Of a stretch of 64,000 nucleotides of DNA, positions 5,503 through 33,225 are shown one piece after another; the stretch's first letter is position 1, and the number at the start of each line of letters is the position of its first letter. Position numbers and translations under genes: made by a program. This DNA comes from Marsupella aquatica (taxonomy: Eukaryota; Plantae; Marchantiophyta), in NCBI GenBank assembly GCA_973895155.1, contig OZ316896.1, forward strand, positions 20,262,754-20,326,753, in the 5' to 3' direction. The notes under the pieces are model-generated. The model did not search any database, had not been told where the DNA came from, and was given only the letters and a program-made list of their open reading frames with translations.

Positions 5503-6189
5503 ATTGGATTTGAGGGACGGGAGGATTAATTTCATGAAAATTTAAGACAAACAAATGAGGCACAGTGTATGGTCTAAAATAATATTTTGGCAGTTGGGGG
5601 CAGTATGAACTATCAGGGGGCGCGCAGGCGGTGTGTGATAAAGTGATTATTCCTAGAAGGGGTTTAAGTATGAAATTGAGAAATTTCCAAACTTTTCAAA
5701 CCTTACATAGTGCATTATGGGGACAGAAAGATCTTTGAGTAACGTCAAGATGGCAAAGACATTGTGGCTGACCCAAATATTAGTGATGTCCCTTGAGTAA
5801 GGAGGTCCAGCCTATGACCAAAGAATGGCTTTTGCTTAAAGCAATATTGGATTTGAGGGACAAGAGTATTTCATGCAAATTTAAGACAAACAAACGAGGC
5901 AGAGTGTATGGTCTAAAATAATATTTTGGCAGTTTGGGGCATTGTGAACTATCAACTATTGCTAGGGGCAGGAGGTGTGTGATATAGTGGTTATTCCTAG
6001 AAGGGGTATAAAGTATTCAATTGGAAAATTTTTTAACTTTTCAAACCTTACATGGTGTTTAATGAGGACGGCAATATCTTTGAGTAAAGTCAAGATGACA
6101 AAGACATTGTGGTCGGCCCAAATATTAGTTATGTTCCGCAAGTAGGGAGGTCCAGCCTATGACCAAAGAACGGACTTAATTCGCTTAAA
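5503..6189. repeat. Diverged tandem duplication, ~343-bp unit x2
   Basis: Units start attggatttgagggac at 5503 and 5846. They share gtgtatggtctaaaataatattttggcagtt and gaggtccagcctatgaccaaagaa. Confidence 0.9.
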
Positions 6190-8248
6190 CCAAGGCGGCC
6201 AGGACGGCAATAAGGTGAAGTCCCCTTTGTAAAGGTGTCTGAGTGGGACATTCACCATTTCTCGACATAAACGGCCAAGAGAGACCGGGAGGAGCCAAAA
6301 GAGGCTTGGATTTTACCTTGCACATATGTAAGCTTCCACAATCCTAGTGTATCAATTGTCTGAGTTTTTCTAAGTGTCTACATTGTATTAAGGCCAAAGT
6401 AACCTAGCTTGGAAGATTACATGAATAGATACAAAAGACTTTTATTATAGTTTCATTTATCATAGTGAATTGTTGTCCATCCACAAAGAAGGTTGTCAGT
6501 TTGTCACCTTGATCAGCTCACCCAACCAAAGGGCCCAATGTGTAGGCACAACCACATCAGCTAACAACTATCATGGCTAGCAGAAGCCACAACTCAAGAG
6601 GTCCACATTACTGATTAACAAAAATAAATGAAGAATGAATTTGAGTACTGTGCAGATCTATCAGAAGAGGATCATCTTGGTAGTAAGCATGTGTGTTTGT
6701 GAGTGCCAGACTAAATGTGGACTTGGTCGTATTCTAACTGTGTCAATACTAACTCGTGCTTGTCTTTGAAACCCACTTTGTTTACCCACTTTGGAATGCA
6801 TTTATATGCATGCCCATTGCATTATTTACCTTGTGTTAATATTTCAAAACATATAGCTTAAAGGTGGCCCCAATTCATGCACATTTTTCCCTGAAAAGTG
6901 CCTATCTATGGCAAATTACTAGTAAGATGTGCCCCGGTCAGTCAGAACTGAATCAACTACACAACTATTTGGGAGATATATAATATAATAAACAAAGTAG
7001 CTGACCGGGTTACAAAAATTACAAATGACTAAACATAGCCTAACTTCAAGTTCATGTCAATTATATAGGTCAGATTCATTTCTTCTCTGGCTATGGAAAA
7101 TTCAAAGACATTCTGATTAATGAACTAATTTAGTAACCTAGGTGTCCCTTGTTCATGACGCCCACCTTGGAAAGAAGGCGTGAGTCTCTCAAGCTAACAT
7201 GTCTCATCACAAAATTTACCTGCAAAATAGAAAGTAAGGTAATTGTTAAACAAAGAATAAGAGTTCAATCAAAAGCAAGACAAACAACGAGTCTAATCCA
7301 TAGCGAATTAACAGACACATGCAATATACATTAAACCCAAACTAATAAAATAATACAACTAGCAATTATATCTACTTTAAGATTTATTAAAATAAAATGT
7401 AATACATCACATTTTGTAAGTTCCCTATAAGAACTTACTTCATGTGTGGCCAGTTCTATTTTTGATAGTCTGGAGTGTCTGGTCCAAGGTATTCAAAGCC
7501 CATGACCTTTCTTCTGGCAAATCATTAAAATTTAGTTGTTGATGTACATAGGCTGTCAACCCCATAGTGGCACGAGAATTACTTTCACATTCAAGAGAAA
7601 GCAGCAAATGCATTCTGAACTTGTCCTCCTCTGATAAGACTCCAATCTGATTAGTTTCATATGCAAAATCACGGATATCACGAAGACTCTGCATCCACAA
7701 AAAAGAATTTGGTGAATTGGAAATTAATGAAAAGAATATGCAACCAAATAAAATACATTTTGCTTCACTTACTACATCGTCTAAATCTTTAACACCATGT
7801 TCAAAGTTTCCATGATCATCATTATGATTCCAATAATCAGTGCCAATAGTCTCGATAATATCATTTGCATCTTGAATATCAACTTGACCTTCTTCAGGAT
7901 ATGGTGGAGGTAAAACTATTTTAGATTCTCTCTCTCTCTCTCTCTTGCTTGAAAAGCAAGTTGAGGAATGTGTGATGGTCTGTTCACACCTCGTTCTTGC
8001 ACCGCTCTCACTGTATGGGCATTCCATGTTAGAATGATATCATTTATAGCATTCTGAATGAATGGAAGAAGTACAGTAACAATGGAGTATCTATGCAACG
8101 GATTATCCATTTGCAAAAATCCTTCCTCGTATGATAGAGTACGAAATAAGTCCTTAAAATGACCCAATCCTTGTTTCTTCAAGAATCCCCATTTGAAATG
8201 CTTCGATCCTCTGTAAAAATCACAATGATTGTAAAAAATTAGTATGTT

Positions 8249-8443
8249 CCTTGAAATTCTTTTTCCCTTTTATAAGTTAAAGCCACAAAAACCCCGTGGC
8301 AGAGGGGAAACAACCAGGCCATAAAAAAGCCAACTAAACAACATGACCCCTGGGAGGGCGGGCAGAAAGCATTAACAACGTACACAGACAACAAATCATC
8401 ATCGCGGCCAATGCAACATTGGGCCCCCATAAGTCCCATAGGC
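8249..8443 (-). mobile_element. Short, probably 5'-truncated non-LTR (L1-type 3' UTR) insertion in an intron of the transposase gene
   Basis: Flanked by a perfect 16-bp direct repeat aaaaaattagtatgtt (8233-8248 and 8444-8459). T/G-rich on the minus strand, like the L1 3' end at ~37400-37620. Confidence 0.6.
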
Positions 8444-9855
8444 AAAAAATTAGTATGTTAATAAACATATCAAGCAAATAATTTTGATAACATATAGTTG
8501 AGTTTAAGTACTATCTGATTATGAACTGAAGAACCTTTGCGAAAACAATGAGTATTTGGTCTTGCCCTTTCAAGATTATTTTGGACCAAAATATGCTCAG
8601 TCGCATAATCAGAACGAATTAATAAAGGATGATAAAATCTTTGAACCGCATTTTTATACCCTTCATAAATAGTCCGGGCTTTCTTATTTACAGCTTTTAA
8701 GTAGGTTGCCACTAAAGATGATTCAAATCACAATATTGCCACTACTTTTTCTGTATTTACAAATATGCCACACTTTTCCTCTATGCTTACTTGAGTTAAC
8801 TATAGTGCCGCGTGTTTCCTTAAGATTGGATCTAATTTCTGTCCAGGTTGTTTTCGGTTAGAGTTTATGAACCTTTGTTTCTTTTGGTTCAGTCGCCTCA
8901 ACTCACTGTGGTGAACAAAGCCCCGGTGCGCGGGGAATTTCATTTTCAAACACACTCAATGCGGATGAATGTAGGTCATCTTAGTTTCACGCAAAAATAG
9001 CAGAGAATGTGAAAGCCACAAAATGAAACGCAGGGAATGCTTGTCGTGTGGGATGGCAATCACCAAAAATGCAATGGGAAAGTAATTTGATCGAGTAGTG
9101 TGCAAGGTTTAACAACGAAAGTTGAACAAGCTACGAGATCACCAGCACATGGTCTGCGAGCTTTAATTATCTAAGTGTGAGCACACCTGGACACCTGGAT
9201 TTCTGCGAGCTTTGACATTAGGGTCTTGATTAGGGTGCCTGATATATTCTGCGGCGCAACATTATCTTGACGGTGCCGTGCTCTGGAGAGGAGAGGATTG
9301 GAGCTCTTGCAAATTATTCCAATGGAGTGTGTTGCAATTGTTCACTGTCGCTGAAGTTCCCTGGTATGTGCAAAATCTTGATTCTTACATAGACTGCCTG
9401 CAGACACCGATTCGAATGGTTTGCCAGTGTTATGCTAATCTTAACCCTTCGCAGCTATATTTTGAGGGAGATTGGACGATTGGTCTTTTTTAATTTAGTT
9501 TCTTTGTTCAAATCACAATTACAATGACTCGCCCAGATTTCCCTATTGTCGGTGACTATATATGCTTACCTTGATCAACGTTTACCCCTATATAATCTAC
9601 TCGATCAATGCATGCGTCTATCATAGAGATGCTCGGATTTATCACATAGATGCTCGGATTTGCGCTTCTATTTGGTGCAGGACATTTCACCTACATGAAC
9701 CCATTTTTGGGCACCTCAATTTGTCAATGAAAGCATGCTCCTTGAATAGGGACCTAGATTACGCCCTGCCCGTGGAGTCGATTTCACTGCTGATTAAATC
9801 TATGTGGCTGGTTTGGTTTTCTCAATGCAGGTTGCCGAAGTCATAAATTCGAGCC

Positions 9856-10929
9856 ATGGCTAATGCTGTTCTGAAGAAGGGCAACACGTTTGAGAGCTGG
9901 CAGGTAGTGAGGCGGGCAATTGTGAAACATGGGGTCTCGACAGAACATGTAATAAGTACATACAAAAAGGACTCTCTTTGTTTTCTTGGAAAGTGCAAAA
10001 TGTGGTGGCATGAAAACCCTACTAAAAAATGTGTGTGGTCAATCAGAGTGATAATGAGCTCTAAGACGGAAACGCTTACTGTGACTCAACTCAATGACCA
10101 CCATAATTGTTGTGCCGCAGACCATTACAATAGACGAATGCATAATTCCTCAGATTACTTAGCTACTTTAATCTTTGACATTCTCATAAAAAATAGGCAG
10201 ACTCGAGCTTGCTCTTTGAGAGACACAGCCCAAGCTATTTTACATCCTGATGTGAGGTATCACACAGCCCATGCAGCCAAAAAGAGAGGTATTATCAGGC
10301 TAGATGGTGATGAGAAGGAATCCTTCCACTTGATTCCAAGCCATTGTCATCATATTTTACACAGGGACCCTACTGCCATGGCAAATTAAGTACTCAGCAC
10401 CTACTGGATCTTTTGAGACTTTGTTTGTGTGCCCTTCAGCTTCTCGAGAGGCTTTTTCACATTGTCGACCACTCATTGCTTTAGATGGCACACACACAAA
10501 GTCAGCATATCCTCAAATGTTATTGGTGGCCACAATTCTAGATGCTAATAACACTGTCATGATTCTATCATATTGTATGGCTCCATTAGAGAATGAGCAA
10601 TACTGGATGAGATTTTTGACCTTGTTGCATGATGCTATCCCAGAGTTGTCCGCTTCAAACACAGTTTTTATTTCAGACAGAGAGAAGGGGCTTCACAATG
10701 CTGTGGATCATGTTTTCCCTAGGGCATTCCATGCTTTTTGCACATGGCACTTGGGGAAGAATCTACAGGCATACTCCAACAAGGCAGCGAGGAAAGCATT
10801 CGATGGACTCGTCTACGCTGCCAACAAAGATCAATTTCTGAGGAGATTGGACAGGATTGTGAGTTCCCATCAGCACATGACTACATTGTCAAAACTGCTG
10901 ATCCTGCTCATTACTCTAGAGCATTCATG
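9856..10929 (+). pseudogene. MULE transposase, N-terminal and DDE part (disrupted)
   Basis: CVWSIR...HHNC DNA-binding region, RPLIALDGTHTK, FISDREKGL and HAFCTWHLGKN motifs. Reading frame breaks near 10389. Confidence 0.92.
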
Positions 10930-10973
10930 CTAAACTGGCCTAGTCCAATAAATGTGCTCATATGGTCTATGTT

Positions 10974-11846
10974 CTATGAATGCAAATGAAATCCAGGGCT
11001 ACAACTAGCTAGAAGGGCTGTGAAGGAACCCATGTCAAAAGGACAAGTCAAAGATGGACCGCATTCATCTAATTCATCAACAAAAGGTGCAGATTGTTGT
11101 ATGTCTACTATATCCTGATTTGGCTCATCATGACCAGAGTCTGATTGGTCATTACCAATATCATGAACTTCCTTGCCCTGCCCAGGTCCAATGTGATCTT
11201 TTCGAAGCTGGCAAGTTCGTCTATCGTGCCCTCTTTGCTTAAAACCGCAAGTCCTGGGCAAGCGGACGCCATTTTTTTCTGGAAACCTCAGCCTGGGTTT
11301 CTCAGTTGGACGTCCTCGTTTTCTACGCTTCAAAGGTGGCCCGCACCAGGCATCAGGTTCCAAATCATCCTTCAAAATAGCTGTGATGCTACCACTGTAT
11401 GTACGTCTGAATGAATCTGATGAATAAAAATGTGACACAAAATCATAATGTCGTAGGTGCAACCTGGTAATGGCTCTCCAAGCATGAATGCATGGAATCC
11501 CAACATCCTGCCAATCTCCACAGGAACATTCCTTCACTGGCTCCAAATTGACTAGAAAATGTCGACCATCTGAATCTGTAATTCTAACTTCTGTAGGGCT
11601 AGATGGGTCTGCAACAAGTTGGTATGATTCCTCATGTCTTTCCCTCAATATAGCCATGATATTGGGAGGGAATGGTGTAGTCAGCGACTCAGCAAGAGTC
11701 CTCTTCTCATAGTATTGCTTCATCATGTAGTCCCAAATAAGATTTGACTGCTTGAATGCTACTTCTTGGCATTCAGATTTTAGTGCTCGATTTTTACTCT
11801 TTGCTTGCTGAGATGTCTCATGACCCCACCTAACACAGGTTTCCAA
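10974..11846 (-). pseudogene. MULE transposase C-terminal part (SWIM finger, zinc-knuckle remnant), inverted relative to its N-terminal half
   Basis: RWGHETSQQAKSKN (TSNxAES-like), CSCGDWQDVGIPCIHA SWIM motif, KRGRP, and GHDRRTC. Confidence 0.9.
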
Positions 11847-12316
11847 TGTTAGTCATGCCTCACAGAAGAACAACAAATTCAAAAGGAATGATGGAATAAT
11901 GAGCATGACAATGTGGATGATTTTTACCTATGACAAGTTCATGTAATGTGCAAATAATTGTCATTCATTATTTTTCATTTCAGCCTCAGCCTCATTTACA
12001 CTGTGCCTACTGTAGTCTGTCAAAGTTGTTGTGTCTTATGTAGTCCGTTTGTATGTAAATGCTTGACAAAACCAAATTGTGATCATTTCACAAACACTAA
12101 TGCTCTAAGAGACATTGATCAAATGCAACTAGGTCTCAACATTTCTCAATTGGAAATCCAATTTTTATTCATAATAAAGCACAAAATACATTCCGGTAGC
12201 AAGGAGCAGTATCTGCAAGTGGACATATGTATGGCCTATGCTATGGCCTGTTGTGTCTACAAAAGCTTGCCCACTATCTATGCATTAAGTTGCTTGTAAA
12301 GCTACACACTATTGAA

Positions 12317-13140
12317 TTATTTCTCATAGACCTTCATGGTCCCAGGCTGCTCATGGAAATAATACACCCCAAATAGATTTCCAATAGTGGATTTCCAATC
12401 ATCTAGATCACTTGGCACCCACTTATGAATGCCATACACAGCAAATCCACTTTTGCCATTCACAGTCTCCAAGTAAAACAATTCATACACCACAAGAGCA
12501 TCAGTCTCCTCACGAAAGCAATAGCACAAATCTCCATCTCGGAATTTCTTGCCCTCAAGTAAAATCTCAGCAGGATTTCCAAACTGAATCTTCTGCTGCT
12601 GTCCAAGCTAACAATCGTCAAAACGGAAAATATAAGTACGCCCAATGTTGTCACTCCGTTCCACAACCCAGAATTCAAAGTCAGTTGGGCGTATCCAAGC
12701 TCGGCTCATGTCATTCCGACTGGACGAGACAAGGTTCCACTTCCACTTGGCATTTGTGAGGAAGGAGTGATACTCCTGTATGTATTCTTCCATGGCAGCT
12801 TGCGTGAAGCAACAGGATTGTATCTCATTTGTCATAGGGAGCCTGAAATAAAGCACCCACACAATTTAAATGTAGCATTGAAAATAGCAAAGTGAATGGA
12901 CCAAACCACTGCAACAGCAAGTAAATGTACAGTTGTTAGCATATTGAATTGAAAGCAAAATTTGGTGATTGGAGTTGGAACAGAGTATACCTATCCCATG
13001 GGGGCCTAAAAGCAGGGTTGACCCGCTTCCTCAATGAATTGACTGTCTCCTTTACTGGATTGAAAACCGGCACCTTAGCCACCTTGCCCCACTGAATCGA
13101 TGATCCGGCGGCCATTGAAAATTGAAGATTCCCGGGATGG
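12317..13140 (-). pseudogene. Second, convergent gene of the MULE, function unknown (fragmented)
   Basis: Consecutive protein-like minus-strand ORF pieces (12317-12529, 12608-12862, 12936-13223) with splice-like boundaries. Position matches the usual second MULE gene. Confidence 0.45.
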
Positions 13141-14956
13141 CTGTACAAAATCAATGTAAGAGTGAAGACGTAAGATAGTTGACCATCATGAAAGCCAGTT
13201 GCCATTAAAGGATAGTTTGGCATCTATTTATGTGGAAGGACTCACTCAAACAGTTGGCTATTGACTGCTTACTACTTCTTGGTCAGTATCTTAACATCAG
13301 CAAGAAACTAGACACAATCCTTTGCCAAACATTGCTACGCAAATGGAGCTAATGGCAACAAGTGAATGCAATTAGTAATGCAACTGAATACTCAATCATC
13401 TAGAAATAGAATCAACACATAAACGCAAGTGTAGGGAGGCCCACTGACAATGCACCTATTTGTGGAATCAGCAGCTTCAATCGCATCCAACGTACGTCCA
13501 AGCAGGTTGCGTCTAATGTTAGCACAACACTACGCTCGATCAGGCTATCGTCCAATGTCAAAGAATGTGCTGCACTCAGGCTATCATCCAATGTAGGTGT
13601 TGTGCTCAACGCATTGTTTCATCTCCAACATTCCCTTTGAAAAACACAGACTGTGTTGCAGACATTTCATTCACAAGACTCCTTTGATGTTTCCTTTGGT
13701 GTTTCCCTCCATGTTTCCCTCTACCCTAACGCTGTTTTTGAAATGTTAACAGTGGTATAGTGGCCTGAGTCAGGGGAACGGGACAGTCAATGAGTCAACG
13801 TGTTTCTACTGCCATGAACGGATGTTAACCCATGGTTAAAGAATTCCGTTACTCGAGTAAGCATAGAGGAATTTAAGTGTGGCATATTTGTAAATACAGA
13901 AAAAGTAGTGGCAGTATTGTGATTTGAATCATCTTTAGTGGCAACCTACTTAAAAGCTATTCTTATTTAATGTAACATGCATATACATAACATAATGTGT
14001 AGCTCCATCGATAGCTCCATGAATTCTAATTCCATAATTTGCTAATTTGTCATATGCTGCACAAGAAATTAAACAAAATTAGTACATAATTTCATGATCA
14101 TGAACAAACTATCTGAATCGTATATAGTCAAAAAATGATTGATTCAATCTAAATAAAGGATATAAATACTTGAATTTTACTCACAGTCCATATGCGAAAT
14201 ATGCATTGCTTCAGTGACATCGTAAACCCGACGTATTAGACATCCGCGTGCTCTTGATGCAAGTAATCCTGGAACTAAAACATCCAAGGCATCACGTACA
14301 AGCGTTCTTGAAACTTTGTATCCAGCTCTTTTTAATTGTGCCTTTATCATTCTTATTCCCCAATCTTTTGCATATCCATATATGGGAATAAACTCTAGAA
14401 TCAATTGCCGAACCTCCTCAACCGTATATGTTGGATACATTTTCTCTCCATTACTAAATACTTTCAACCATCGCCATAAGGTAATTCGATCTATTTCCAA
14501 GTGCTAATGCACATTCCTTCATAGTGTAACCAATGTGAAGTGCTGTCATCACATCTTCACATATTGAATTGATGTTTGCTGCATCCATATATTTCCCAAA
14601 TATTCTCCAAAACTCCAATGAACTAATACTTTATTTTGCCAGCGTATAATTCCACCTTTTTTAGAACAATTACAGAACTCTGTTAGAAAAACAAAGGTCA
14701 CGAGACAAAAAAACAAGGCTAGTTAGAAGATGTACACTAAGTTGCCATTGCACATACAATAAAGTAGGAATATTTTTAGCAAAAGATACCCTAGATTTAC
14801 AAAGACTATGGAGGGCTACCACCTTTGGTCTATTCAATGCCCCAATTTAAGCTCTTGAGATCATCTATTACAAAAATAAGCAAAGATACAAATGGGCAAA
14901 CAAAATCAATATATAACATAAAAAATTCTGCTCATTATCATGACTATGAATCATGT

Positions 14957-16298
14957 TTATGCATTTTCATTTGAAAATGTGTAGGCACCACCTAGCTTTT
15001 CATTAATTGCAATCCCAACTACGTATACCGGTTCTATAGGAGAACATCTGTACGAGGTGGCGTGTATATCTTTTCCACGAAGAAAGAAAATATCCCCATC
15101 TAATATTGGAATCTTTATTCCATACTCAATAACAACTAGATGTCCACCTCGTTCCTCCATTGAGGGATTTGATGCCATGAACATAGTGTATTTACTACAA
15201 TCATGATCATTATGAACTATATTACAGTAGTTCTTTGTAAGAAATAGAGGATATGTTGGTACTGCATGTTTCACAACGTCGGGCTTGGAAAAGTATTGAA
15301 GTAATTCTTTGCTTAGATCCATGAAAGGATCTTTGCAATCCAAAAATTCCCTCACTACCGGCCAAAAATAATCACAAAATAATAGGAAAATAATTTCAAA
15401 TAAGATTTGATGGGAGCATTGCTCATGAATTAACTCCAATTGCAATGCGCTAATCAGAGTTGTATCAACAATCTTTAACTTATCCCTGTAGTAACTCACA
15501 AAATGTGCTCCTTTTCCTTCTCTCCAATTCACAAGTGGCCCCACAGCTCGCATTGTTTCAATCAATGTTGATCTCAAATTAGCTCTACGAACAGTCCATT
15601 TGTGATTGTAGGCATCAATTATTGAATGTCGTAGAAATGGTCGATCACCCTCTGGAATAACTCCTTTCATATGTCCCCCTATTATTTCATTGGTAGAAAG
15701 ATCAATAGATGACAAGGGATCCATAACATAAAAGTTACTTGGTATCACCTTCCATACAATATGTCGTTATGTTTTGGGTGGACTAAATCCTCTCTCAATC
15801 AAGAAAGCATTTTTATGTTTCACAAGAAACTTTGGGCTTCTCTTCGCAAATGTCTTTATTGAGATTTAATGTTCTTCAAATTTTTCAAAATGATCTGCCT
15901 TCCGATTTATATATAAAATTAGATCTTTACAAAATTTCCGGACCCTAGTGGCAATCTCATTCCCAAGCAAAGATAGATTGTACCGGAAAGTGATCAAGTG
16001 GACTATTATTTTCCACTGATTGACAGTAAAATACTCAGACCAACGACCGGTTTTCCCCAAGAAGTGAAAACCAGAATAAAATTTTGATAACTCTCCCTTC
16101 ATTTTCCCACCGGAAAAGATGTGAACACCATATTCAAAGAGTAACCAATCACCGAGCAACCATTTCAGTAAAAACTGAATATGTAATTTTCTCAACTGAG
16201 ATGTAAGAGTGATGAGCTCACAGAAATAAATAGCACCCTTAGGAAGAGGTTGGCTTTTGGTGATGTCTGTTCGATTTTGATGATCATTAAATTGAATC
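14957..16298 (-). pseudogene. Last exon encoding a TET/JBP-like Fe(II) dioxygenase (double-stranded beta-helix) domain
   Basis: ORFs 15866-16303 and 14957-15748 share one frame, separated only by two TAA codons. Motifs: LFLTKNYCNIVHNDHD (HxD, His at 15212-15214), GGHLVVIEYGIKIPILDGDIFFLRGKDIHAT (distal His at 15062-15064). Splice acceptor tgtgcag precedes 16298. Confidence 0.75.
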
Positions 16299-17220
16299 TG
16301 CACAAATAAGATTATTGATCAACATAAAGTGATAAAGAACTTTTACTAATTTATTATAGTTTACTAGTTAATCAATATTTTGTTTGACATCTTGGACCAT
16401 AGTGAAATCAAATAGAATTCGAAGCATATCAACGCCAGGCACTGAGGATTCCAACAAAAATAATTTGAAAGTTTCACCCCCCCCCGGAATATCAATTCCT
16501 CTTGATTTTACTCACAAAACTATGGTCTCCAAAATATAGCAATATAATGATGATAATGAATATCTTATAATAGATTGTATACTATTGGCAACAAGGTAAG
16601 ATTCTTACCCTTTCATCAGATTTGGGAGAAGTTTGCCTTTTCTTTCCCCTTCTTTCATTTACTTTTGCATCATTGTTACTCAATTTTAAGTCTTTCATCG
16701 AATCTGCAATGAATGACAATCTATCCTGAATATCAACTTTTTCATGTAATTGTTCAAACAAAAAATAACACTAACCATTCACATATCAATCACAGGTACT
16801 TATTTGACACATAGAATTACTTTCTACAGCCTAATCTTTACGTATGTCTATTTCTTGACATAATTATTTTGGATATTGTTTGTATTAACGTATTCCAAAC
16901 TCCATCAACAAATACAAAATTGAAGTATGCAAATTGCATGCATGCAACAATAGATGAGGCAAAAAGAGAAATGGTCACCTCGTCACCACAAATTAGCCAG
17001 TTTTCCAAATCCAAAGTTGTCTTCAAAATTGATATCTCTGCACTTTCCAAAAAATATATCAAGCTTAAGGTCCCATTGGCCCTAATACAAAATCTAGTGG
17101 ATCCAAGTTACTATGAGTCCTCCAAAATATTCTCAATAAAATTTAAAATTTTTCACTCTTTTGTCCTTTCCTAATTTGATGGCCTATGGTGTTTTAGTCA
17201 AAGAGTCTATTGGATAAACT

Positions 17221-18200
17221 TTAGAACCAAAAAATATGATCACGAACAGGGGTCTGCAAAGTGGGATCAATGGGATGGAGATGACAATAAAGAACCATCT
17301 GTCAACTCCATGGGCACTATGATCATATATCTTTCGATCCTCGGGGGTCTCACTATATGGATGCCTCCCATCACCTGCGACGGTTTTAGGCCTCGGACCC
17401 CCTAAAATATAAGAAATTATTTTTATTTTTCAACCCCTATAAAGTTGGAATATTCTTGGAATATTCCAAAATTTTGGTTATAAGGACCCTAATGTTCTTA
17501 TAAGTCTCAAAATTGGATTTAAGAGACCGTATTGTTCTTCTCAGAAAATTCTTAAGTCTTCCCTTCGAACCAATAAAATGACCCTATACTTTGTCGCACA
17601 TGATATGCCATTTTTGGGAAGTGAAACCCCGGAGTTTTGATCGCAAACATATCCTTTTGCCTGACATTCCTTCAAACAGTAAAAATGCCACATTGTGGGG
17701 CATCGAATGCAATGGACAATATCTGTCCAATTGAGGTCATCATGTTTACCACATGCCTTGCATGTATGTAACGGGCAGATAGGGGTGTGTGATGGCAAAC
17801 GCGCACCGCAAAAAAACCTTACACAAAATCTATCTGAACATTTTCGAACATATTGTGGAGAGTCAAGAGGACCCTCCAAATTCCCCAACTTTCCACATTG
17901 GGCACAGTTTGCATGTTTATATATGCAGTCTTTGCACTTCCACTTCCCATGTTGGCCAGAAGGTGGGGGAAGGCCGACCCCTGGACAGTTATTCTCTGCT
18001 ACATGCAGAGATTAAAGTGTCTCTGAAAGCATGGTCCATCACAAATGACTAACTCTCCACCATCATCACAAATGGCACAACAATGGGCTGCTTTTTGGTA
18101 GATTTGTTCGCGTGAAAAACTTCAAAACATGTGGTCCAAACACAGCTGAATGTCTCACCTCGCCCTTATCTTTTCTACATGGTTGTTTAGGACGAGCCAT
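17221..18200 (-). pseudogene. EDM2/NSD-type PHD-finger cluster, frameshifted and interrupted by a MITE; likely the 5' part of the dioxygenase gene
   Basis: CAICDDGGELVICDGPC, WKCKDCIYKHANCAQCGKLG, KCSDRFCVRFF, CPLHTCKAC, CIRCPTMWHFYCL. Beyond the MITE it reads VLYCHLHPIDPTLQTPVRDHIFW, resembling the recalled EDM2 YC...HEID...TPVRDH tail. Confidence 0.82.
17340..17634. mobile_element. MITE with CTC-GGGG termini and 8-bp TSD
   Basis: Ends ctcgggggtctcact and agtgaaaccccggag. TSD tttcgatc / ttttgatc (7 of 8). Homologous to 35329-35626 in the opposite orientation. Confidence 0.88.
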
Positions 18201-18369
18201 GCCTGCACACCATAAACAAAATTAATTGTTAGAAATCACCAAAAAATTGGGATTTAAACTCAGAACTAACAAATCATCAAAAATACACAATAATACTACT
18301 ATTCAACGAGCTATTCAAGATTTATGTACAAATTAGTTGCATACTTCAATCTACATAACAAGTCCAAGT

Positions 18370-19380
18370 ACATGTTGTTCTCTTAGCCATGCAGGTCCCT
18401 CACAAGATGGTGGTATAATAAGAGTCGTGGCTGCCGAATGTCCCTTCTTTGAACTACTCAGAAACAAAATTAATATTCACTAAGGTAAGCAGGGTTTGAG
18501 AGATGGAACCAGAGATGGCAAAATTTCTAGAGCCACATTCCCTTAATAGAATGGGACCAAACTTTGCTTGCACATACCCCAGGTAGTAGACAACGTGTTG
18601 GTGAAGTAAGAACACCAACGAAGCTTTGGTTGAGAAATGAAAAATCAAAGCCTCCATGGGGTACTCCTGCATCCTAAGCAACCTTTGACTTCTCTCCCTT
18701 GCCACTATTCGAACCAGCTCCGACTTGCTAGATCTGCAGCCAAGTCCAAGTGCATGTTTTCCTCTTAGCCAGGTCCCTAACAAGATGGTGGTTCATAAGA
18801 GTCGTAGCTATCAAATGTCCCTACTTTGAAGTACTCAGAAACCTATCGTTCAGTAAGGGAAGGAACGTTTAAGAGATGGAAGCAGGGAGCATGGAATTTC
18901 TGGAGCCACAATATTCCCTAGACGAAATGGGACCAAACTTGGCCAGCACGTACCTCAAGTAGTAGACAATGTTTTGGCAAAGTTACAGCATGAACGGAGA
19001 TTTCATTGAGAAATGAAAAACCAGATGCTCCGAGGCAGTCCTCCTGCCTCCCAAGCCACCTTCGACTCCTCTCCCTTGCCACTATCTCAATCAGCTCGTA
19101 CTTGCTAGACCTGCAAACAAGTCCAACTACATTGTGTTCTCTCAGCCACGTCCCTAACAAGATGGTGGTATCACAGGAGTTGTAGTTGTTGAACGTCATT
19201 GCTTTGAAGTACTCAGAAATCAATCATTCAGTAAGGGAAGCAACGTTTAAGAGATGGAAGTAGGGAGCGTGGAATTTCTGGAGCCACATTCCCTGGACGG
19301 AATGGGACCAAACTCGGCCAGCACGTACCTCAAGTAGTAGACAATGTCCTGGCAAAGTTACAGCATGAACGGAGCTTGAG
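18370..19380 (-). repeat. Diverged 378-bp tandem repeat (~2.7 units) with residual coding potential (126-codon unit)
   Basis: gtccct(c/a)acaagatggtggt recurs at ~18395, ~18773 and ~19151. Minus-strand ORFs repeat LLGTWLR...GLxCRSSKxELxxIVARERS. Confidence 0.85.
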
Positions 19381-22300
19381 CTTTCACTGAGACATAAAAA
19401 ATTGGATGCTCCGAGGTGGTCCTCCTAACCAGTTTTGACTTCTGCTGCTTGCCAAGTCTATTTCGACTTCTCTCTTGCAAGGATTCAAAGGAGTGTTCGA
19501 CCAAGTTTGAGGGTGTGTCATCAGCTTCATTAACTTTAGTGTGTGACAATTTGTTGGCCGGTGATTTCCTTGGCGGCTCATCTCCCTCCTCAGGTTGGGT
19601 TGAAATGAATTGAACTCCTGATACGTTCGCTTGAAAGCCTTAGAAATAAAAACACATATAAGAAATCTCAATGGGTATGGCTACCTTATTTGGGAGCCTA
19701 CTGAAGTTACTTAATTTGTCCTATTGAGATTTTGTGTCTATGTTTTTGTTTTGAATTATTTTGTAAGATAACCATAAGGAACATAACAAACATGGAGCCT
19801 TAAGGGATGAGTCCAAGGCCCGAATTCCTTTTTCAAGATTTTCATGATTTTTCCAAAAGTGCTTTAAAAAAACATATAAAAATGAAACATGTTTTGTGAA
19901 CTTTGCTATTATAATTCTTTCAATGAAAATCTTGGGATATTTTCAACATCATTTTCACAATTACCAAAAATAACAAATCCATACTTAATTACAAACATAA
20001 AATTTACGGTCTTTGATCTGAGTTTGTGCAAACTCAAAATCTTAAGTAGAATGCCACTATCCATTGTAGGTGTGCATCTAAGTCCACTAAATCTCTAAAT
20101 ACAATGCAACTCAACTAATCTAAGGCTTCTCTAACCTCCTCTCCACTTCTAGAAGATCCTTGCTTCAATCCGAGCTAGCTCAATAGTTACATCTTCTGTT
20201 GCACCCTCTACTCTGGTGCGCTTCACGTCCTCCCCACTCTCTTGATCCATACCAATATTGAAATGTACATCGAGTTTGATTTGGGCAGCCACCTGGCTTC
20301 ATGAAATCATGAAGCCGGGTTCTCACCTGAAAGAAGCTACCTGATCCTCCTAGCTCCCTCCAGTTAGTTCCCCCAAGCTCGATAGTTCTCTTTGCTTCTG
20401 CTCCCAATCCACCCACCTTGGACTCATTTTTGACCCAGACCAGGCCTGGTCAACCCTTAATCCTCCCTGGATCAATCTTGATTCCCGATCGGCCCTCCCC
20501 TGGTCCCTGATTAGTGAAACCCTTCCCCAATCCTAAACCCTCCCCCCCAATCTTTTACCGCTCCCCCTCCAATGTTTGATCATCCCCTTGATGCTCGACT
20601 GCCCTCCTCCGGTGCTCCATCCCCCTCTGATGGTTGATCGTTCCCCTGACGGTCGATTGTCCACCCTCCTCCAATCCCTAAATGGCCCCCCTTCCAATCC
20701 CCTTCCAATCCTTATCAATCCCATTCCAATCTCCCTTGCTCCCTCTCCCATCCTCCACTTGCTCCCCCTTCAATCCTTAGGTCTGCTCGATTGAGATCTA
20801 GCTCTCAAGCTCAATTTTTCACAAATTATCCCTGATCCTTTGTGGCTATCTCCCCTAATTGGAATCTGTCTCATTTAATCAGAGTCTACCACAGCTAATT
20901 CAAGTAGCAGTCAATCACAGTAGAAGCTCATTCAATAACCAAATCTGAGAAATCAAAGTCCAACACTCAGGTGAAATCCAGCAATCAAAGCATCAACATC
21001 AAACCAGGAATTCAAAATTTCAGCTTCAGGATTTTGAAGGCGACAGCAGAGATTAGCAGTCGTTCCCAGACCATAAATTAGGCCTGACCTCAATCGGCAG
21101 CTGATGACAGCACCTTGATGCGACTTGAGCTTAAGTGAGGGGCAATAGCCCTCTCCAGGCCGCAGCCTCCTTTGCCATAGCCAATTGGCTACCCTAGCCC
21201 TTTGTAGGTCATTGAGCTTGCAACACAGTCTTTGCCCTTTGTATTTTGTCACAACCAGTTTTGGGCTTCATGAATTCATGAAGCTTTTGGTTTCTCAGTT
21301 TCCCAGGTGGTAGCCCCTTCATGAATTCATGAAAGAGAATAAGGTATCTTAGGGAGAGAATCTCCAGAATAGCCAAAAGAAAGACTTCAAAAGTGAAAGA
21401 AAAGGGGATAAAGACAAACCACTCAATCTCAAGAAATGCAAAAAATATGGTGAAATAAAAGCAAAAAGTGCTCCAAATGCCAATATTCCAAAAAGCATAT
21501 GGAAACAGTAGGTCAACAAGACAAACTCTCCAATCATGAGTCATGGAAGTACGTATCTTGGTGGGCAAAAACATATGGGTTTTTACTGGTGGGCAAAAAC
21601 ATATGGGTTTTTAATGCCAATGTTTATCCTCATGAAACTTGGGAATGCAAACCTAAAAATGATTTATTTCTCCAAGTAAACTGGATTGGGTAGTCCAAAC
21701 AATATTGTGAGATTAATAATTGAGCAATCTAGTAAAGGGAGGTATGGGGAAGGGAAAAGGCCCAAAGAAGCCCTAAGTTGCCCAACAAGCCAAAAAGTCA
21801 AAGGACTAAGATACCACCTAGTAGCCAAGAAGACTAATTAATAAAGTGTTGTGTCATAAAAAACTTTTGGAAATATAATTTTTTCAACTTTTTCCTTGAC
21901 TTGTTTATCTATGTCATGAAATGATTGGCTTAATTATTGAAAAATGATTTAAGCATTTCTTATTCATTTAAATTAGAGAAAGGACCAATTAAGTTCAAAT
22001 AGGCGTCCTCTATTCATGAAAACATGTTATTTCATTTGTTTCAAGTTAAAGGGTTTTTGCTCTTTTGTGTGTTTTGTCTACATTAAGTTCTTCTCACTCA
22101 TTTGAGAGCACTAGCCTCCCCGGGCGTTAAGTTCTATCCCATGTGGTTGAGACTAGTGTTAATTTGGGTGTCCGACTCAAGGGTCTTCAAGATAGTGGAC
22201 AGTTGAGAAAGCGGACTCATGAATTCATGAAGACCGATTGTAACAAGTTTCTAAAAACACTAAGTCCTGTCTCAAAACCAGATTGTTGTGCATTTTGGAA

Positions 22301-23697
22301 AGGTCAAGCGTTGCAACAAGCACCAAGGGGAGAGAGTGAATATGGTCATCTGACATCTCTCAAATTCCAGGAAGGTGTAAGAGCGCTGACACAAGCGGGG
22401 ACACAAGAAGACCTACTGAGGCTGCAAATAATTCCGGCAAGGAAAGGATCATCACAAGAAGGTCACCCGGGCACACTTGTATCATTTGGCTGAGATTGGA
22501 AGCCAATCAATATCAAGAAATTAACTTGAAGGGGAAGAATAAGAATTTGGAAGAGGTCCCCAAGAAGAGGTTGGGGGAGCCCAGTTGGGTCAATATGTTT
22601 GTGAAATTCAGATGTTGCCTAACAAATCAAACTCAGGCATGTTGAGAGCCAGGTTGAGAGTAAAAGAGGAGCCATTGAGTGATCTGATTTGGATCAGAAC
22701 GGGTACATTTGGAAGCGTAGGTGGTGAATTTATGGAGATATCATCTTCCATTGAAAAGTCTTCCTCAAAGAGTGAAGGGGCGCATGTTGGAGAGTCAAAA
22801 AGAGATCATATTTTATGAATTTGAATTTTTCCCAAGTCTAATGAATTATGGAGGTAATTTGATTGTTTGTTAAAAATACAAATCATGTTTTGGTAAAAAT
22901 TGCTAAAATGGCATAGTAAAATTATAGGTAGTAATTTTATCAAAAGTAAGTTGAGATCATTTTGTAATTAGGAGATGGTGAAAAAAGTGTGTCATTTTAA
23001 TACTTTCAGTTTGTTTTATAATTTTGTCAAAAAACAGGTAGTATTTTTGGCCACTTTTTTGCCATTTTCTTTGTTTCTGCAATTTTTTTACGAGAGTGCT
23101 TAGAGTTTGGGCTTGTTACTCACCCTTTAAGGCTTCTTGTTAACAATGAAAGGCTTATTTTACAAGGTTCCTTAGTTTTGGTTACCTTATGTTAATTAAA
23201 GAACATCACCATCAAACCCAAACCCAACCACCCGACATTAGTGGATACCAATGTCATAAACCCGGAGGACATTGCAAGAATTTTGTTAGTTAATTAAGCT
23301 CATATGAAACCAAATTAAACTGGTCCTCAAGACCTGGACCCACATATTGGTTATTGGTGAGAGTAAGGACTACAAGAATATATTGTACATAGAAAGGGCC
23401 AAACAAAGTACAAAGAAGAGCAAACAATATTTGTCCAACAAGTACAAAGACAAATTAAAGAAGCAGGTGCAACTTTGATTTCATTTTATTTAATAATGAG
23501 AGTGGTTATGCTTTTGTTTGATTACACTTTTCTTCTATGTGAAAGTGATGTGTCCTTCGTGACTGGCCCTTAGAGGAAAAGTAACTGGGAAGTCCAGTAT
23601 GGAAGTAAGAACCCAGTATGTTCTTGGTGGATGATCAACAATCCCGGGTCACGTCAATCCTATGGTGGAAGAGGTCCAAATTCCATTCACCAATGAT

Positions 23698-24040
23698 TGT
23701 TGAGTATAGACGACACTCGTAACGGTAAGCACATGACACATCCAACGCGCAAGTAGTCAACACAAGAGATACGTGGTTCACCTCCTCGAGGCTACGTCCA
23801 CAGAAACACACAAGAGAGCTTTACTGAACTCTAAGCCCGTCAGCTATACCAAGTCTCCACAGTGTAAGCTCTCCTCATCTCTCAAGTGACTCCATAACAA
23901 TGAGCCTAAGTTCCACTTATCCAAGCAAACACCATTTGGCATATAGTGTGCATCCTAGTTAATCTAACCACGTCTCCGACTATGGTTAGCCTAACTACGG
24001 TTACATGTCATAACCCTAGACCATGAGTAAATACCTAACA
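23698..24040 (-). repeat. 3' LTR of the copia element
   Basis: TGTTGAG...CCTAACA. About 15 substitutions plus a 3-bp indel against 33228-33573 (hand count). Confidence 0.95.
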
Positions 24041-24856
24041 ATCTCCCCCTTGACTCTGGTCTAGGGGAGAGTAATACTGCTAACCTATATGATTCCTCAA
24101 CGGGAAGTTCTGGACAAAAACCAACATGGTTTCCCCTCTCTAACTAGAGCAAACCAAAACTAAGCCGTAGCCTATTACTAGGAGTGAAGAAGAGCATATA
24201 TCAGTAATTACAGCAAATGTTAAGAAAAACCCTTACTTGTGATGCAATTGCAAAACCTGGAGCACGTCACGATGTCTAGAGAAACTTTTTGAAGGAATCA
24301 CTTTGGTAAATGCGTCAGCTGGGTTGAGTTTACCGTCTATCTTGACTAGCTCAAACAAATTATCAGACACAGCCTGCCTGATAAAATGGTACCTGACGTC
24401 TATGTGCTTCACTCTACTGTCCATCACCTGGTTCACAGCAAGGTGAAGGGCACTTTGACTATCACAATGGAGCTTCACATTCCCCTATGGCAATCCCATT
24501 TCAGTGATAAGTCTATCCAACCAAATCGCTTCCTTCATTGCTTCCGCTGTTGCAACATACTCCGCTTTTGTAGTAGACTGAGCAATTATACACTTCTGCA
24601 AAGTAGACCTCCAACTTATGCATCCACCGCCAAGTGTGAACACGTACCCTATTGTTGATCTCCTTTGGTCCAGATCTTGTCCATAGTCAGAATCTACATA
24701 GCCAATCAATGATCTCGCATTGTTTGCATTTGCATCAAATAAAAGACCATGATTCACGGTACCCTTCAAGTACCTGATAATCCACTTCACTGCTTCCCAG
24801 TGTACCTTCCCTGGATTCGACATGTACCTGCTCACCTTGCCCATAGCCATGGCAAG

Positions 24857-26769
24857 TGTAATGCTGTACATTTGTTAGAAATGATGGAAATTTTATAAAT
24901 TTTAAACTTTTTCTAACTCAAAGGTGCAATCTAGTTACCTTTTGTAGCAATTTAGATCAACTGAACACTTTACCTAATGTTATGCTTCATCGGAGACTAT
25001 TGCCTATATTGGACAAGGATCGCCAATATAAATCCTTGCTCTTTACATGCTACCAAGAAAGAAGACTAGACATCATTGGAGAAGCAATGCAGACTAGAAG
25101 ATTCAAGAACCGGACTCCAAAACACTTCTTGAGCAAGAATGAGCTCTGTATACAATTATCACAATCAGCCAATCTTTGCTATTTTAGTTAAATAGCTAAA
25201 GTAGTCATAAAAGTCTCATACTTTTTCAGGAGTTAGTAGTTACGTAGTAGAATCATCCCTAAAAGTTTCATCTCAAACCGACATGTGGTTTGAAAGTTAA
25301 AATTATTTTAGTTTAACTATTTTTTACATAGCCGCGACTTCGCCGACGCTTTGAGAAAAGTCCTTTGTATTTTTGGACGCTTTGAAAAGCGTCCACCCAA
25401 GACCACGACGCTTTCTGAAGTGTCCGCCACCCAACCAGTTGTACTCCGACGCTCTGCAATCCACATGAGGAGCGACGCCCACAGAAGCGTCCGCTACCCC
25501 GAAGGCGACATCGACACTGCGACGCCACTGAAGCGTCCCGCCCAAAGACCAGAAGACAAACGCTGCGGCCAAGACATCAAAGTTTCGACGACGCTTTCTG
25601 AAGCGTCCACCAAAAGTCCTTTGTAGTTTGGACGCTTTCTGAAGCGTCCACTATGTTCCCGACACTTAGAAATATTTTCGTTTTTCGCACTTTTATAACA
25701 CTGCACCACTTTTGCCAATTTATTTGAGGCACTTAGAAGTCTCAGAAAAGTCTGAAACTTTGTCAGCATAGAGATTATATGTAGTAGAGTATCCTAGAAA
25801 AGTTTCAACTCATTCCGACTTTTATTGTAGAAGTTAAAATTAGATTAAAACCATTGTTTATTAGTTTTACCGGAAAACACCGACGCTCTACAAAGCGTCC
25901 ACTAAGTCTCCAATGCATTTCTTTATTTCTTTTAGGATTATCTTTTTAGATATTTGAGGTTTGAAAAGTCATGCCTTTTCAGTTAAGGGAACCTTTACCT
26001 ATAAAACCTCATGGTTTATCCTTTACCAAAGGTGGGAAACAATTCCAATTAGACTTCTGTTAGTTTCCCATCCTTCCATTTTAACAAGAGAAGTCTTGTA
26101 TGGAAGTAAAACTTATGTTTGAATTTATGAATTCAAGAAATTTCTTGATACTTGAATTCAGTTACAAGCTTCTGTGACTTACATTGAGTTCACTGCTAGG
26201 CTTGCTTGAAGGGTCAAGATTCGCTAGCTAATTCAAGAGTTGTTGTTTGATATGTGAGAAGTAAAGTTTGGTTCTCAGAGTATTCAGTACCGTTACTTTG
26301 TTTATGGAATATGATTTAGTGTTTGACGGAATTGCGTATCGCTGATGTCAAACCATGTTGCCGGCATCTTAAGTCATATCAATACATTTGTAACCAGAGC
26401 AGTACTTGTTTAGCAAATTGGAAATTCCTTATCATGCAATTTTATTTAGTCAGGAGAGAAATTAGTGAGTTATGAGACTTGTTTTATGTCTATTCTAAGA
26501 CCATAGTCCTTTTTTAAGGAGTGGCAATAGCTAATCAGAGTTTTCAGACCATAAATTACTCTCTCTCGACTCATAAGACAGAAGTTTATTTACTTTGGTG
26601 TTTTGTTTATTTGATCTTTTAGTGAGAAACAAGAAATCTATGTGCTGAGAGCTTTAGATTACTCAGAGAGATAAATTCATTCAATTCTTTCCAAATCTGT
26701 TCTTAAAGGGATCGAATTCCGAGTCTTTATGTAAAAAGTGTTTCTTTTGGTTCTTCTGGCTATACGACA
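24857..26769. mobile_element. Probable solo LTR (~1.9 kb) of an unrelated family, inserted in the copia RT
   Basis: TGTAAT...ACGACA ends and 5-bp TSD GCAAG (24852-24856, 26770-26774). Removing it restores TRPDLAMAMGKVSRYM. Confidence 0.88.
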
Positions 26770-27350
26770 GCAAGATCAGGTCTAGTGCAAGTCATCAAGT
26801 ACATGAGACTTTCCACTGCCTTATCATAAGGAACCTTTGACATCAGCCCCTTCTCTGTCGCATCTATGGGACAATAAATTGATGACAATTTGAAGTGTGC
26901 AGCTAAAGGGGTACTTACTGGCTTACTATCCCCCATGTTGAACCTAGCAATTATCTTCCTCGCATAACTGCTCTGTGTCAACCATAGCTTACCAGCCTCC
27001 AAGTCCCTTGTGATCTCAATATCCAAAATCCTTTTAGCTGGCCCTAGGTCCTTCATCTTAAACTCTGCACTGAGCAGTGCTTTAAGCTTAACAATCTCAG
27101 ACCTATTCTTGGCCGCAATAAGCATATCATCCACATAAAGTACTAAAACAATGAATCCAAAGACAACATTATTCACCGGTTTCAAATATACACAAAGGTC
27201 AAACACACTCCTGTGAAAACCTTGTGACCAAATTCAATCGTCAAACCGCTTGTTCCACTGTCTTGGTGACTGCTTCAACCCATACAAGGATTTCAGCAAA
27301 CCATTTCCTCCTGTCCTCTCTTCACAAAACCTAGCGGCTGTCTCATGAAG

Positions 27351-30703: not shown

Positions 30704-31031
30704 CTCGGGGGGGTCACTATATGGAGGGCCATACATCGCGTGCGACGTTTTAGGATTTGACCCCCCTAACTTTTAAGTGAAAAATATTTTTTTGCAAAGC
30801 CCTTTCTTTCTTTAAATTTTATCATTTTTTATTAAAAAACCCCTAAAAAATTTACAGAAAGTATTTTTTGCAATTAAATAGGCCTATGTGTTCTTTAAAG
30901 TCGACCAATCAATAAAACATGCCCTACGTGTTATTCCACCAAACTTTGGAAGTCTTTCGCCACACCCATTTAAATGGGCCTATACTTTGTCGCACGTGAT
31001 GTGTCACTTCCATGGAAGTGACCCCCCCGAG
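30704..31031. mobile_element. MITE (328 bp) of the CTC-GGGG family in the copia gag
   Basis: TIRs ctcgggggggtcact and agtgacccccccgag. Perfect 8-bp TSD cccctctt. Confidence 0.92.
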
Positions 31032-33213: not shown

Positions 33214-33225
33214 GCTCTGATACCA
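33214..33225 (-). promoter_or_regulatory. Primer binding site for initiator tRNA-Met
   Basis: TGGTATCAGAGC on the minus strand, 2 nt from the 5' LTR. Confidence 0.92.

What the first reader, a model, noticed from the sequence alone, without database searches (positions are those of the whole stretch)
16298..18200. EDM2-like PHD cluster apparently spliced to the dioxygenase instead of EDM2's methyltransferase-like domain
Seen: the full Cys/His pattern plus the YC..HPID..LQTPVRDH tail is recoverable across frameshifts and the MITE. A small exon (~16610-16725, cag.../gtaag) and an acceptor at ~16299 bridge towards the dioxygenase exon. Known: Arabidopsis EDM2 reads histone H3 marks including H3K9me2 through such PHDs and has a C-terminal methyltransferase-like domain. 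Inference: a captured host reader module was fused to a DNA-modifying enzyme, giving a new reader-eraser architecture.
Basis: partly seen in the sequence, partly recalled or inferred. Interest (0 to 1): 0.8.

Follow-up and report, generated by a model that had tools for sequence, protein, structure and literature searches.

The report
Plant transposon carrying TET and PHD
A decayed copy of a multi-copy land-plant DNA transposon carries a histone-reader-type zinc-finger gene and a gene predicted to fold like the TET enzymes that oxidise methylated DNA, most likely as two separate genes rather than the proposed spliced fusion, and the pair would likely help the element escape silencing in a lineage said to lack TET enzymes.

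Summary
Both modules are real. The PHD cluster (18200-17221, minus strand) is about 30% identical to EDM2's, and an intact homologue of the downstream protein is predicted to have the TET/CMD1 fold. The fusion is not supported. The PHD frame stops where EDM2 homology ends, as two intact homologues do (220 and 226 aa). The small exon has its own ATG and splices in frame to give about 476 aa, matching an intact stand-alone homologue of 479 aa. No RNA was available, so one transcript is not excluded. TET-carrying IS3EU elements are published for fungi only, and a 2026 paper says plants have no TET homologue. The likely role is anti-silencing, with reader and enzyme acting as separate proteins; this is untested. 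The enzyme family lacks the usual second 2-oxoglutarate arginine, so its chemistry is open.

The parts
2256..39644 (.). Complete IS3EU/GingerRoot-type DNA transposon (37,389 bp; about 21.9 kb without the three bounded nested insertions)
   Evidence: TACGG...CCGTA ends, 28 of first 30 nt matching, perfect 6-bp duplication GATGTG on both sides; the only one of 4538 TAYGG/CCRTA pairs with a perfect 6-bp duplication, 23 of 25 inner matches against a next best of 14
2256..2308 (+). Left terminal inverted repeat
   Evidence: 43 of 53 nt complementary to 39592-39644
39592..39644 (-). Right terminal inverted repeat
17221..18200 (-). EDM2-type PHD-cluster gene, single coding exon, about 228 aa in intact form; here broken by a 1-nt excess near 18115, a 10-nt deficit at 18013-18022, a MITE and a 1-nt deficit near 17296; own ATG 18200 behind an acceptor AG at 18204-18203; stop TAA 17223-17221
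   Evidence: tblastn with P0002/P0003; Pfam PHDvar_NSD E=1.5e-5; EDM2 hits; indels in related copies; length sum 687 nt = 229 codons
17340..17634 (.). High-copy MITE inserted in the PHD gene, 8-bp target duplication TTTCGATC/TTTTGATC
   Evidence: summed depth above 40,000 in all 4 runs and empty-site joints in 2 of 4; second copy at 35329-35626, 87% identical
16609..16703 (-). Small first coding exon of the dioxygenase gene: acceptor AG 16705-16704, ATG 16698, 30 codons, donor GTAAG 16608
   Evidence: sequence and frame; no change listed at these sites in related copies
16298..16608 (-). Predicted 311-nt phase-0 intron
   Evidence: GT..AG ends, in-frame join; not shown by RNA
14957..16297 (-). 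Main exon of a TET/JBP-fold dioxygenase (about 476 aa with exon 1); two premature stops at 15868-15866 and 15769-15767 in this copy; HxD...H triad intact
   Evidence: 53% identity over 425 aa to intact P0001; Foldseek and VIA-align of the P0001 model; the 15769 stop is a sense codon in related copies in 4 of 4 runs
13960..14503 (-). Transposase, 5' part (HTH region, first catalytic Asp region, start of the rva_4 core)
   Evidence: Pfam HTH_21 E=0.0067 and rva_4 E=6e-4; resembles by eye the GingerRoot DDE sequence printed in PMC6839031
7440..8690 (-). Transposase, 3' part (rest of the rva_4 core and C-terminus), frameshifted
   Evidence: Pfam rva_4 E=1.2e-6 and 3.6e-6; the frame continues across the MULE
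8691..13959 (.). Nested Mutator-like element splitting the transposase; 10-bp duplication TTCTTATTTA
   Evidence: inverted ends 95-99% complementary; MULE, DBD_Tnp_Mut and SWIM Pfam hits; flanks
23698..33573 (-). Nested copia LTR retrotransposon, 5-bp duplication ATGAT, LTRs 95% identical
   Evidence: RVT_2 and rve hits; LTR match and flanks
18392..19480 (.). Three tandem units of about 377 bp just upstream of the PHD gene, probably non-coding
   Evidence: no frame shows a consistent synonymous excess; no Pfam hit

Best explanation
This is a decayed copy of a land-plant IS3EU/GingerRoot DNA transposon that carries, upstream of its transposase and on the same strand, an EDM2-like PHD-cluster reading frame and a reading frame predicted to fold as a TET/JBP dioxygenase, most likely as two separate proteins that would together counter host silencing. 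Shown: the element's ends, the three genes, the PHD stop, the dioxygenase's own ATG, the HxD...H iron triad, and related copies that lack the lesions that could be checked. Inferred: intact copies express a PHD-only protein of about 228 aa that binds histone H3 tails on the element's silenced chromatin, and a dioxygenase of about 476 aa that oxidises or otherwise modifies 5-methylcytosine there, which keeps the transposase expressible. Whether the two proteins touch, which histone mark is read, and which co-substrate the enzyme uses are untested.
For: Element ends and 6-bp duplication match the IS3EU/GingerRoot definition in PMC10045372 and PMC12730594 (passages). Intact PHD homologues of 220 and 226 aa end at DHISWL-stop where the window has DHIFWF-stop, and related copies change two bases to give the same I-S-W-L codons with no change listed in the stop. 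EDM2 homology ends at that tryptophan in 10 of 11 hits. ATG 16698 gives 476 aa with the conserved WLLG at residue 76, against 479 aa and residue 77 in P0001. 0 of 27 dioxygenase homologues held match a PHD profile and 0 of 13 PHD homologues match the dioxygenase profile. The P0001 model's best matches are CcTET, NgTET1, CMD1 and TET2: Foldseek E 1.6e-8 to 2e-5; Z 15.4 with TET2 (rmsd 4.0, 243 aligned) and with CMD1 (rmsd 4.8, 258 aligned). HxD is kept in 22 of 22 rows with letters and the second His in 18 of 19. Precedents: TET-carrying IS3EU in fungi (PMC12730594); CMD1 as one of four separately expressed genes in an 18.4-kb Chlamydomonas transposon (10.1101/2022.06.16.496473, passages).
Against: No transcript was seen, so exon structure is predicted. 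Nearly all homologues are unnamed ORF calls on short contigs, where a spliced fusion in genomic DNA would be split in two. It is not shown that P0001-P0003 lie in the same kind of element. Exon 1 is not significantly similar to the P0001 N-terminus (1275 of 2000 shuffles score as high); only the length matches. One more distant PHD paralogue reads past W-L for at least two more codons (loose ends at 17247, read by eye), so the stop is not universal. The fold model has mean pLDDT 58.7. No Arg stands at the usual second 2-oxoglutarate position in 18 of 18 rows, so ordinary TET chemistry is not assured. The acidic stretch in front of EDM2's first PHD is missing from the element's protein.
Confidence: 0.6

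Rival explanations
1. One reading: the PHD exon is spliced to the small exon and makes one reader-eraser protein of about 700 aa.
For: Same strand, 522 nt apart. In this copy donor 17227 with acceptor 16721, or donor 17247 with acceptor 16726 or 16298, would be in frame. An acceptor-like TGCAG at 16704 is kept in related copies.
Against: Donor 17227 matches 3 of 9 consensus positions and is GC in most or all of the depth in 4 of 4 runs. Acceptor 16726 is absent in both runs laid. Donor 17247 (5 of 9) would cut the conserved DH-I-x-W end, and P0002/P0003 have Ile or Ala there, which cannot begin with GT. No fused protein turned up: 1 hit of 479 aa among 779 candidates of 472-2000 aa, 22 hits of 87-457 aa, 11 long PHD hits all EDM2-type.
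Confidence: 0.1
2. One transcription unit, two proteins: a shared upstream leader is spliced alternatively to the acceptor before the PHD ATG or to the acceptor before the dioxygenase ATG.
For: Both ATGs lie just behind a TGCAG acceptor, 2 nt and 5 nt away, the same phase. No AATAAA lies between the PHD stop and the next ATG. This is compatible with the best explanation at the protein level.
Against: Equal phase has a one-in-three chance. Local donors at 16820 and 16775 (7 of 9) could serve a short untranslated intron of the dioxygenase's own promoter. Plant poly(A) signals are loose (recalled).
Confidence: 0.25
3. The PHD gene works apart from the enzyme, as a decoy or competitor of host EDM2 that changes read-through and polyadenylation over the element's heterochromatin, or it is passive cargo like other gene fragments in GingerRoots.
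For: EDM2 binds H3K9me2 and promotes full-length transcripts at transposon-containing loci (PMC7529245, passages). 22 of 77 Selaginella GingerRoots carry host gene fragments (PMC6839031).
Against: Three copies at 64-79% protein identity keep an open frame and the Cys/His pattern, which argues against passive cargo. Only about 30% identity to the EDM2 proteins found; the host's own EDM2 was not available for comparison.
Confidence: 0.25

Closest known systems
TET-carrying IS3EU transposons of rust fungi and Tuber (Kojima 2025, PMC12730594)
   Same: IS3EU ends TAYGG..CCRTA, 6-bp duplication, TIR over 30 bp, TET/JBP gene next to the transposase; anti-silencing role proposed
   Different: Those are fungal and place TET between the transposase and an alpha-kinase gene. 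Here the host is a land plant, the third gene is an EDM2-type PHD cluster, and no kinase was found (no Pfam hit in 59 further frames). 'PHD' occurs 0 times in that paper's main text and in the one supplement file held.
GingerRoot of Selaginella lepidophylla and mosses (Cerbin et al. 2019, PMC6839031)
   Same: TA..TA ends, 6-bp duplication, integrase-like DDE core with the same motifs, capture of host gene pieces
   Different: Those are 3.9-12.9 kb with 100-150 bp TIRs; this one is about 20-22 kb without nested insertions, with a TIR of about 53 bp. 'PHD' and 'dioxygenase' occur 0 times in the main text and in the one supplement file held.
EDM2 (ENHANCED DOWNY MILDEW 2) of flowering plants
   Same: Same run of atypical NSD-type PHD fingers and the same C-terminal YC..H.ID..L.TP.RDHI tail; 30% identity over 239 columns, E=7e-30
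   Different: No N-terminal RFTS-like domain, no acidic stretch, no methyltransferase-like domain; about 228 aa against about 1300; encoded by a transposon
CMD1 of Chlamydomonas reinhardtii (PDB 7cy4-7cy8), with CcTET, NgTET1 and human TET2
   Same: Predicted TET-type double-stranded beta-helix with HxD...H triad and the first active-site Arg; CMD1 also sits in a multi-gene DNA transposon
   Different: 9-16% identity. No second Arg, which TET2, NgTET1 and CMD1 all have in sequence (PMC7854593). CMD1's blocking Trp358 aligns with a small residue, so ascorbate use does not follow. An N-terminal helical region of about 165 aa has no tested fold match.

Membership tests
IS3EU/GingerRoot | TA..TA termini (TAYGG..CCRTA) with terminal inverted repeats | tested here: met
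   TACGG..CCGTA, 28 of 30 nt; definition from PMC10045372 and PMC12730594 passages
IS3EU/GingerRoot | 6-bp target-site duplication | tested here: met
   GATGTG on both sides; 1 of 4538 pairs
IS3EU/GingerRoot | Integrase-like DDE transposase | tested here: met
   Pfam rva_4 in three pieces; motifs match the printed GingerRoot DDE sequence by eye; no tree was built
TET/JBP dioxygenases | TET-type double-stranded beta-helix fold | tested here: met
   On the model of homologue P0001: top Foldseek and VIA-align matches are TET2, CMD1, NgTET1 and CcTET; Pfam Tet_JBP only E=0.13 in one homologue
TET/JBP dioxygenases | HxD...H iron triad | tested here: met
   22 of 22, 22 of 22 and 18 of 19 rows
TET/JBP dioxygenases | Second Arg binding the C5 carboxylate of 2-oxoglutarate | tested here: not met
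   No Arg 11-18 residues after the second His in 18 of 18 rows (Tyr 13, Leu 3, Met 1, His 1 at the expected place); Arg or Lys 5 residues after it in 13 of 18. Judged from sequence spacing, not from a residue-level structural alignment.
TET/JBP dioxygenases | Oxidation of 5-methylpyrimidine in DNA | not testable with these tools
   needs an enzyme assay
CMD1-type ascorbate-using enzymes | Trp358 blocking the 2-oxoglutarate site | tested here: not met
   aligned column holds Val 9, Ser 5, Ala 5, Cys 3, Ile 1; the alignment to CMD1 is weak, E=0.18
EDM2 | 2.5 atypical PHD fingers with the conserved tail | tested here: met
EDM2 | N-terminal RFTS-like and C-terminal methyltransferase-like domains | tested here: not met
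   tblastn of 4 EDM2 proteins finds only the PHD region at significant E-values
EDM2 | Binding to H3K9me2-marked chromatin | not testable with these tools
   needs a peptide array or ChIP
EDM2 versus NSD/ASHH origin of the PHD cluster | Phylogenetic placement inside EDM2 | not tested
   No NSD/ASHH or bryophyte EDM2 sequence was held; best sequence hits are EDM2 and the best atlas cluster is streptophyte
   DNA evidence only; no RNA available

The most novel reading that the evidence does not exclude
An active land-plant transposon family encodes its own two-part chromatin kit: a stripped-down EDM2 reader taken from the host finds the element's H3K9-methylated chromatin and recruits a TET-fold enzyme that, lacking the usual 2-oxoglutarate arginine, writes a base modification not yet described in plants.
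Probability: 0.2. Interest if true: 0.9.

Novelty: new variant of a known kind. Interest (0 to 1): 0.62.

Why it matters
Land plants remove 5mC with glycosylases and are said to have no TET homologue, although oxidised methylcytosines are reported in plants and are associated with their repeats (PMC13638503, passages). A transposon-borne TET-fold family in a land plant gives a candidate source and can be assayed directly, since intact homologues exist (P0001). The cargo also suggests an anti-silencing strategy different from the VANC proteins of VANDAL elements: an enzyme plus a reader captured from a host heterochromatin factor.

Tried and rejected
No RNA holder was listed for 14900-18300; this is no evidence on expression. 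All four runs were contigs of unrecorded library type, so no splice junction could be seen. No whole genome is held for this window. Related-locus scans found no confirmed relative in viral contigs (96 pattern matches) or metagenome contigs (134), so gene order in other species was not seen. Complex prediction of the PHD protein with the dioxygenase was not available, so binding is untested. The PHD fold model was poor (mean pLDDT 55.9) and gave no match at E<=0.001, only weak tandem-PHD rows. Sequence search of solved structures with the window's own frames found nothing significant. The atlas search for P0001 gave unnamed clusters and, as leads only, clusters with 13-15% Tet_JBP or 2OG-FeII_Oxy_6 members at a recognition value below the tool's bar. 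The three 377-bp repeats were tested as a coding domain and rejected. The 84-nt inverted repeat 8692/13958 was considered as the element's ends and rejected: it belongs to the nested MULE. A CMD1-like ascorbate mechanism was considered and left open because Trp358 is not conserved. Depth tiers in the contigs (about 7-10 against 40-60 in X2; about 25-29 against 93-143 in X3) hint at a handful of near-identical copies, but depth is not a copy number. Earlier-finding look-ups by genome, by sequence and by six words gave nothing.
Full report
Question. I checked the modules, the proposed bridge and the surroundings.

The PHD cluster is real. Six-frame reading shows it on the minus strand from ATG 18200 to TAA 17223-17221. 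Two intact unnamed homologues, P0002 (220 aa) and P0003 (226 aa), were the 2 hits among 4 candidates; they align along the whole region in four pieces. A MITE at 17340-17634 with an 8-bp duplication interrupts it, and contigs in 2 of 4 public runs skip it. The 1-nt excess near 18115 and the 10-nt deficit at 18013-18022 are absent from related copies in 4 of 4 runs. One further base near 17296 is inferred from contigs that are one letter longer than the window over that span. The corrected length is 229 codons. A profile search of longer proteins gave 11 hits among 6613 candidates, all EDM2-type plant proteins, 5 named EDM2 or EDM2-like; identity is 30% over 239 columns. NSD/ASHH proteins were not held, so no tree was built.

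The dioxygenase is real and TET-like. Pfam does not see it. Searches found P0001, 479 aa and 60% identical (1 hit among 779 candidates of 472-2000 aa), and 22 further unnamed relatives of 87-457 aa. The AlphaFold model of P0001 (mean pLDDT 58.7) matches CcTET, NgTET1 and CMD1 best by Foldseek (E 1.6e-8 to 2e-5), and TET2 and CMD1 best among 48,161 chains (Z 15.4; rmsd 4.0 over 243 and 4.8 over 258 residues). In alignment A1 (24 rows, the window's frame among them) HxD is invariant in 22 of 22 rows with letters, the second His is kept in 18 of 19 and an upstream Arg in 11 of 11; no Arg stands 11-18 residues after the second His in 18 of 18 rows. That Trp aligns here with a small residue. The co-substrate is therefore open. 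This copy has two premature stops; the one at 15769 is a sense codon in 4 of 4 runs, and the other could not be checked because that list was cut.

The bridge is not supported. First, the PHD frame ends in DHIFWF-stop, and both intact homologues end in DHISWL-stop; EDM2 homology ends at that Trp in 10 of 11 hits. Second, the small exon has its own ATG at 16698 behind an in-frame stop at 16773, and it joins the main exon in frame through a 311-nt GT-AG intron. This gives 476 aa with the WLLG motif at residue 76, against 479 aa and residue 77 in P0001; the N-terminal sequence similarity itself is not significant (439 and 1275 of 2000 shuffles as good). Third, laying 2 of the 4 runs on 16280-17335 listed 16 substitutions at 45% or more. 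The 17226 change is also seen in the other two runs. Fourth, no GT in the PHD tail matches more than 5 of 9 positions of a recalled donor consensus, against 7 of 9 for the donor at 16608. Fifth, 0 of 27 dioxygenase homologues match a PHD profile and 0 of 13 PHD homologues match the dioxygenase profile.

Against my reading: no RNA holder was listed, so nothing here shows transcripts. ORF calls on genomic contigs would split a spliced fusion. An in-frame route from donor 17247 to acceptor 16298 remains formally open in this family, although it cuts the conserved end and is impossible in P0002 and P0003 with a GT donor. One more distant PHD paralogue reads on past W-L (loose ends at 17247, read by eye). 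Both ATGs follow a TGCAG acceptor in the same phase, which leaves room for a shared leader with alternative splicing; that would be one transcription unit but still two proteins.

Downstream on the same strand lies an rva_4 transposase in pieces, split by a Mutator-like element with a 10-bp duplication. A search for the published IS3EU ends found one pair, 2256 and 39644, with 28 of 30 matching bases and the duplication GATGTG; it is the only one of 4538 pairs with a perfect 6-bp duplication. A copia element (23698-33573) and MITEs are nested inside. The transposase motifs match the GingerRoot DDE sequence printed in PMC6839031 by eye, and IS3EU and GingerRoot form one lineage (PMC10045372, passages). 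All 30 bins of 13900-19000 are covered in 4 of 4 runs by contigs at several identity levels, so this is a family, with relatives about 98.5% identical that lack the lesions I could check. The host is a land plant (pectinesterase and NB-ARC-LRR genes); a hydrolase-like frame before the NB-ARC (E=0.0064) suggests a liverwort, from recalled knowledge of that gene class.

Mechanism. Shown: architecture and conserved catalytic residues. EDM2 binds H3K9me2 (PMC7529245, passages), but the element's protein lacks the acidic stretch before the first finger, so the mark it reads is not known.

Comparison with print. Kojima 2025 (PMC12730594; parts 1 and 4 of 7, section 3.4, term passages, and term counts in the one supplement file held) describes TET-carrying IS3EU elements in fungi only, with an alpha-kinase as third gene and no mention of PHD. 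Cerbin 2019 (PMC6839031; parts 2-4 of 7, term counts, one supplement file of 16 kb, which may not include all tables) describes GingerRoot in lycophytes and mosses with captured gene fragments and no mention of PHD or dioxygenase. CMD1 lies in a multi-gene Chlamydomonas transposon (10.1101/2022.06.16.496473, passages; its supplements are closed). [quoted passage not shown] I also read term passages of PMC13519894, PMC11065753, PMC4738411 and PMC3417536, which added no plant case. My paper searches listed no report of a TET-carrying transposon in a land plant or of a transposon-borne EDM2 PHD. Iyer et al. 2013 was not held, Iyer et al. 2009 and 2014 were not read, and Repbase was not searchable, so a prior mention of a bryophyte TET/JBP gene cannot be excluded. 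Two unchecked notes from this scan report TET/CMD1-like genes in Sphagnum, one of them fused to a zinc finger.

Verdict. Observation partly confirmed; fusion not supported (about 0.1). What is there is a new variant of a known kind: a land-plant IS3EU/GingerRoot transposon with a TET-fold dioxygenase gene and a stand-alone EDM2-type PHD gene. Interest 0.62.

Noticed in passing
window 18392-19480; 5529-6173; 38207-38608: Three tandem arrays inside the element (about 377-bp, 340-bp and 90-bp units). The 377-bp array lies directly upstream of the PHD gene and shows no coding signature; such arrays could be binding sites for the element's own proteins.
   Followed up: partly
window 8691-13959: The nested MULE has its transposase core on the plus strand (9847-10933) but its SWIM-containing half on the minus strand (10974-11852), an internal inversion; it also holds unexplained coding-like frames at 12317-13223 with no Pfam hit.
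   Followed up: partly
loose ends at window 17247 and 17289: A more distant PHD paralogue in runs X2 and X3 matches the tail and continues past W-L without an immediate stop; its end and neighbours are not visible.
   Followed up: no
window 16988-17050: A distant copy carries 763 other letters in the spacer between the PHD and dioxygenase genes, in both runs laid.
   Followed up: no
window 54617-58858: Host gene with a weak alpha/beta-hydrolase frame, NB-ARC and LRRs, a likely hydrolase-type NLR.
   Followed up: partly
window 43139-46633: Pectinesterase gene pieces on the minus strand, with an 18-bp tandem repeat at 43475-43564.
   Followed up: no
window 35855-37620: LINE-like 3' fragment inside the element (read by eye; no Pfam hit at E<=0.01).
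   Followed up: no
P0001 residues 1-165: The dioxygenase family has an N-terminal helical region, shared with P0009, P0011, P0015 and P0025, that the fold searches barely tested; it may be a DNA-binding or partner-binding domain.
   Followed up: no
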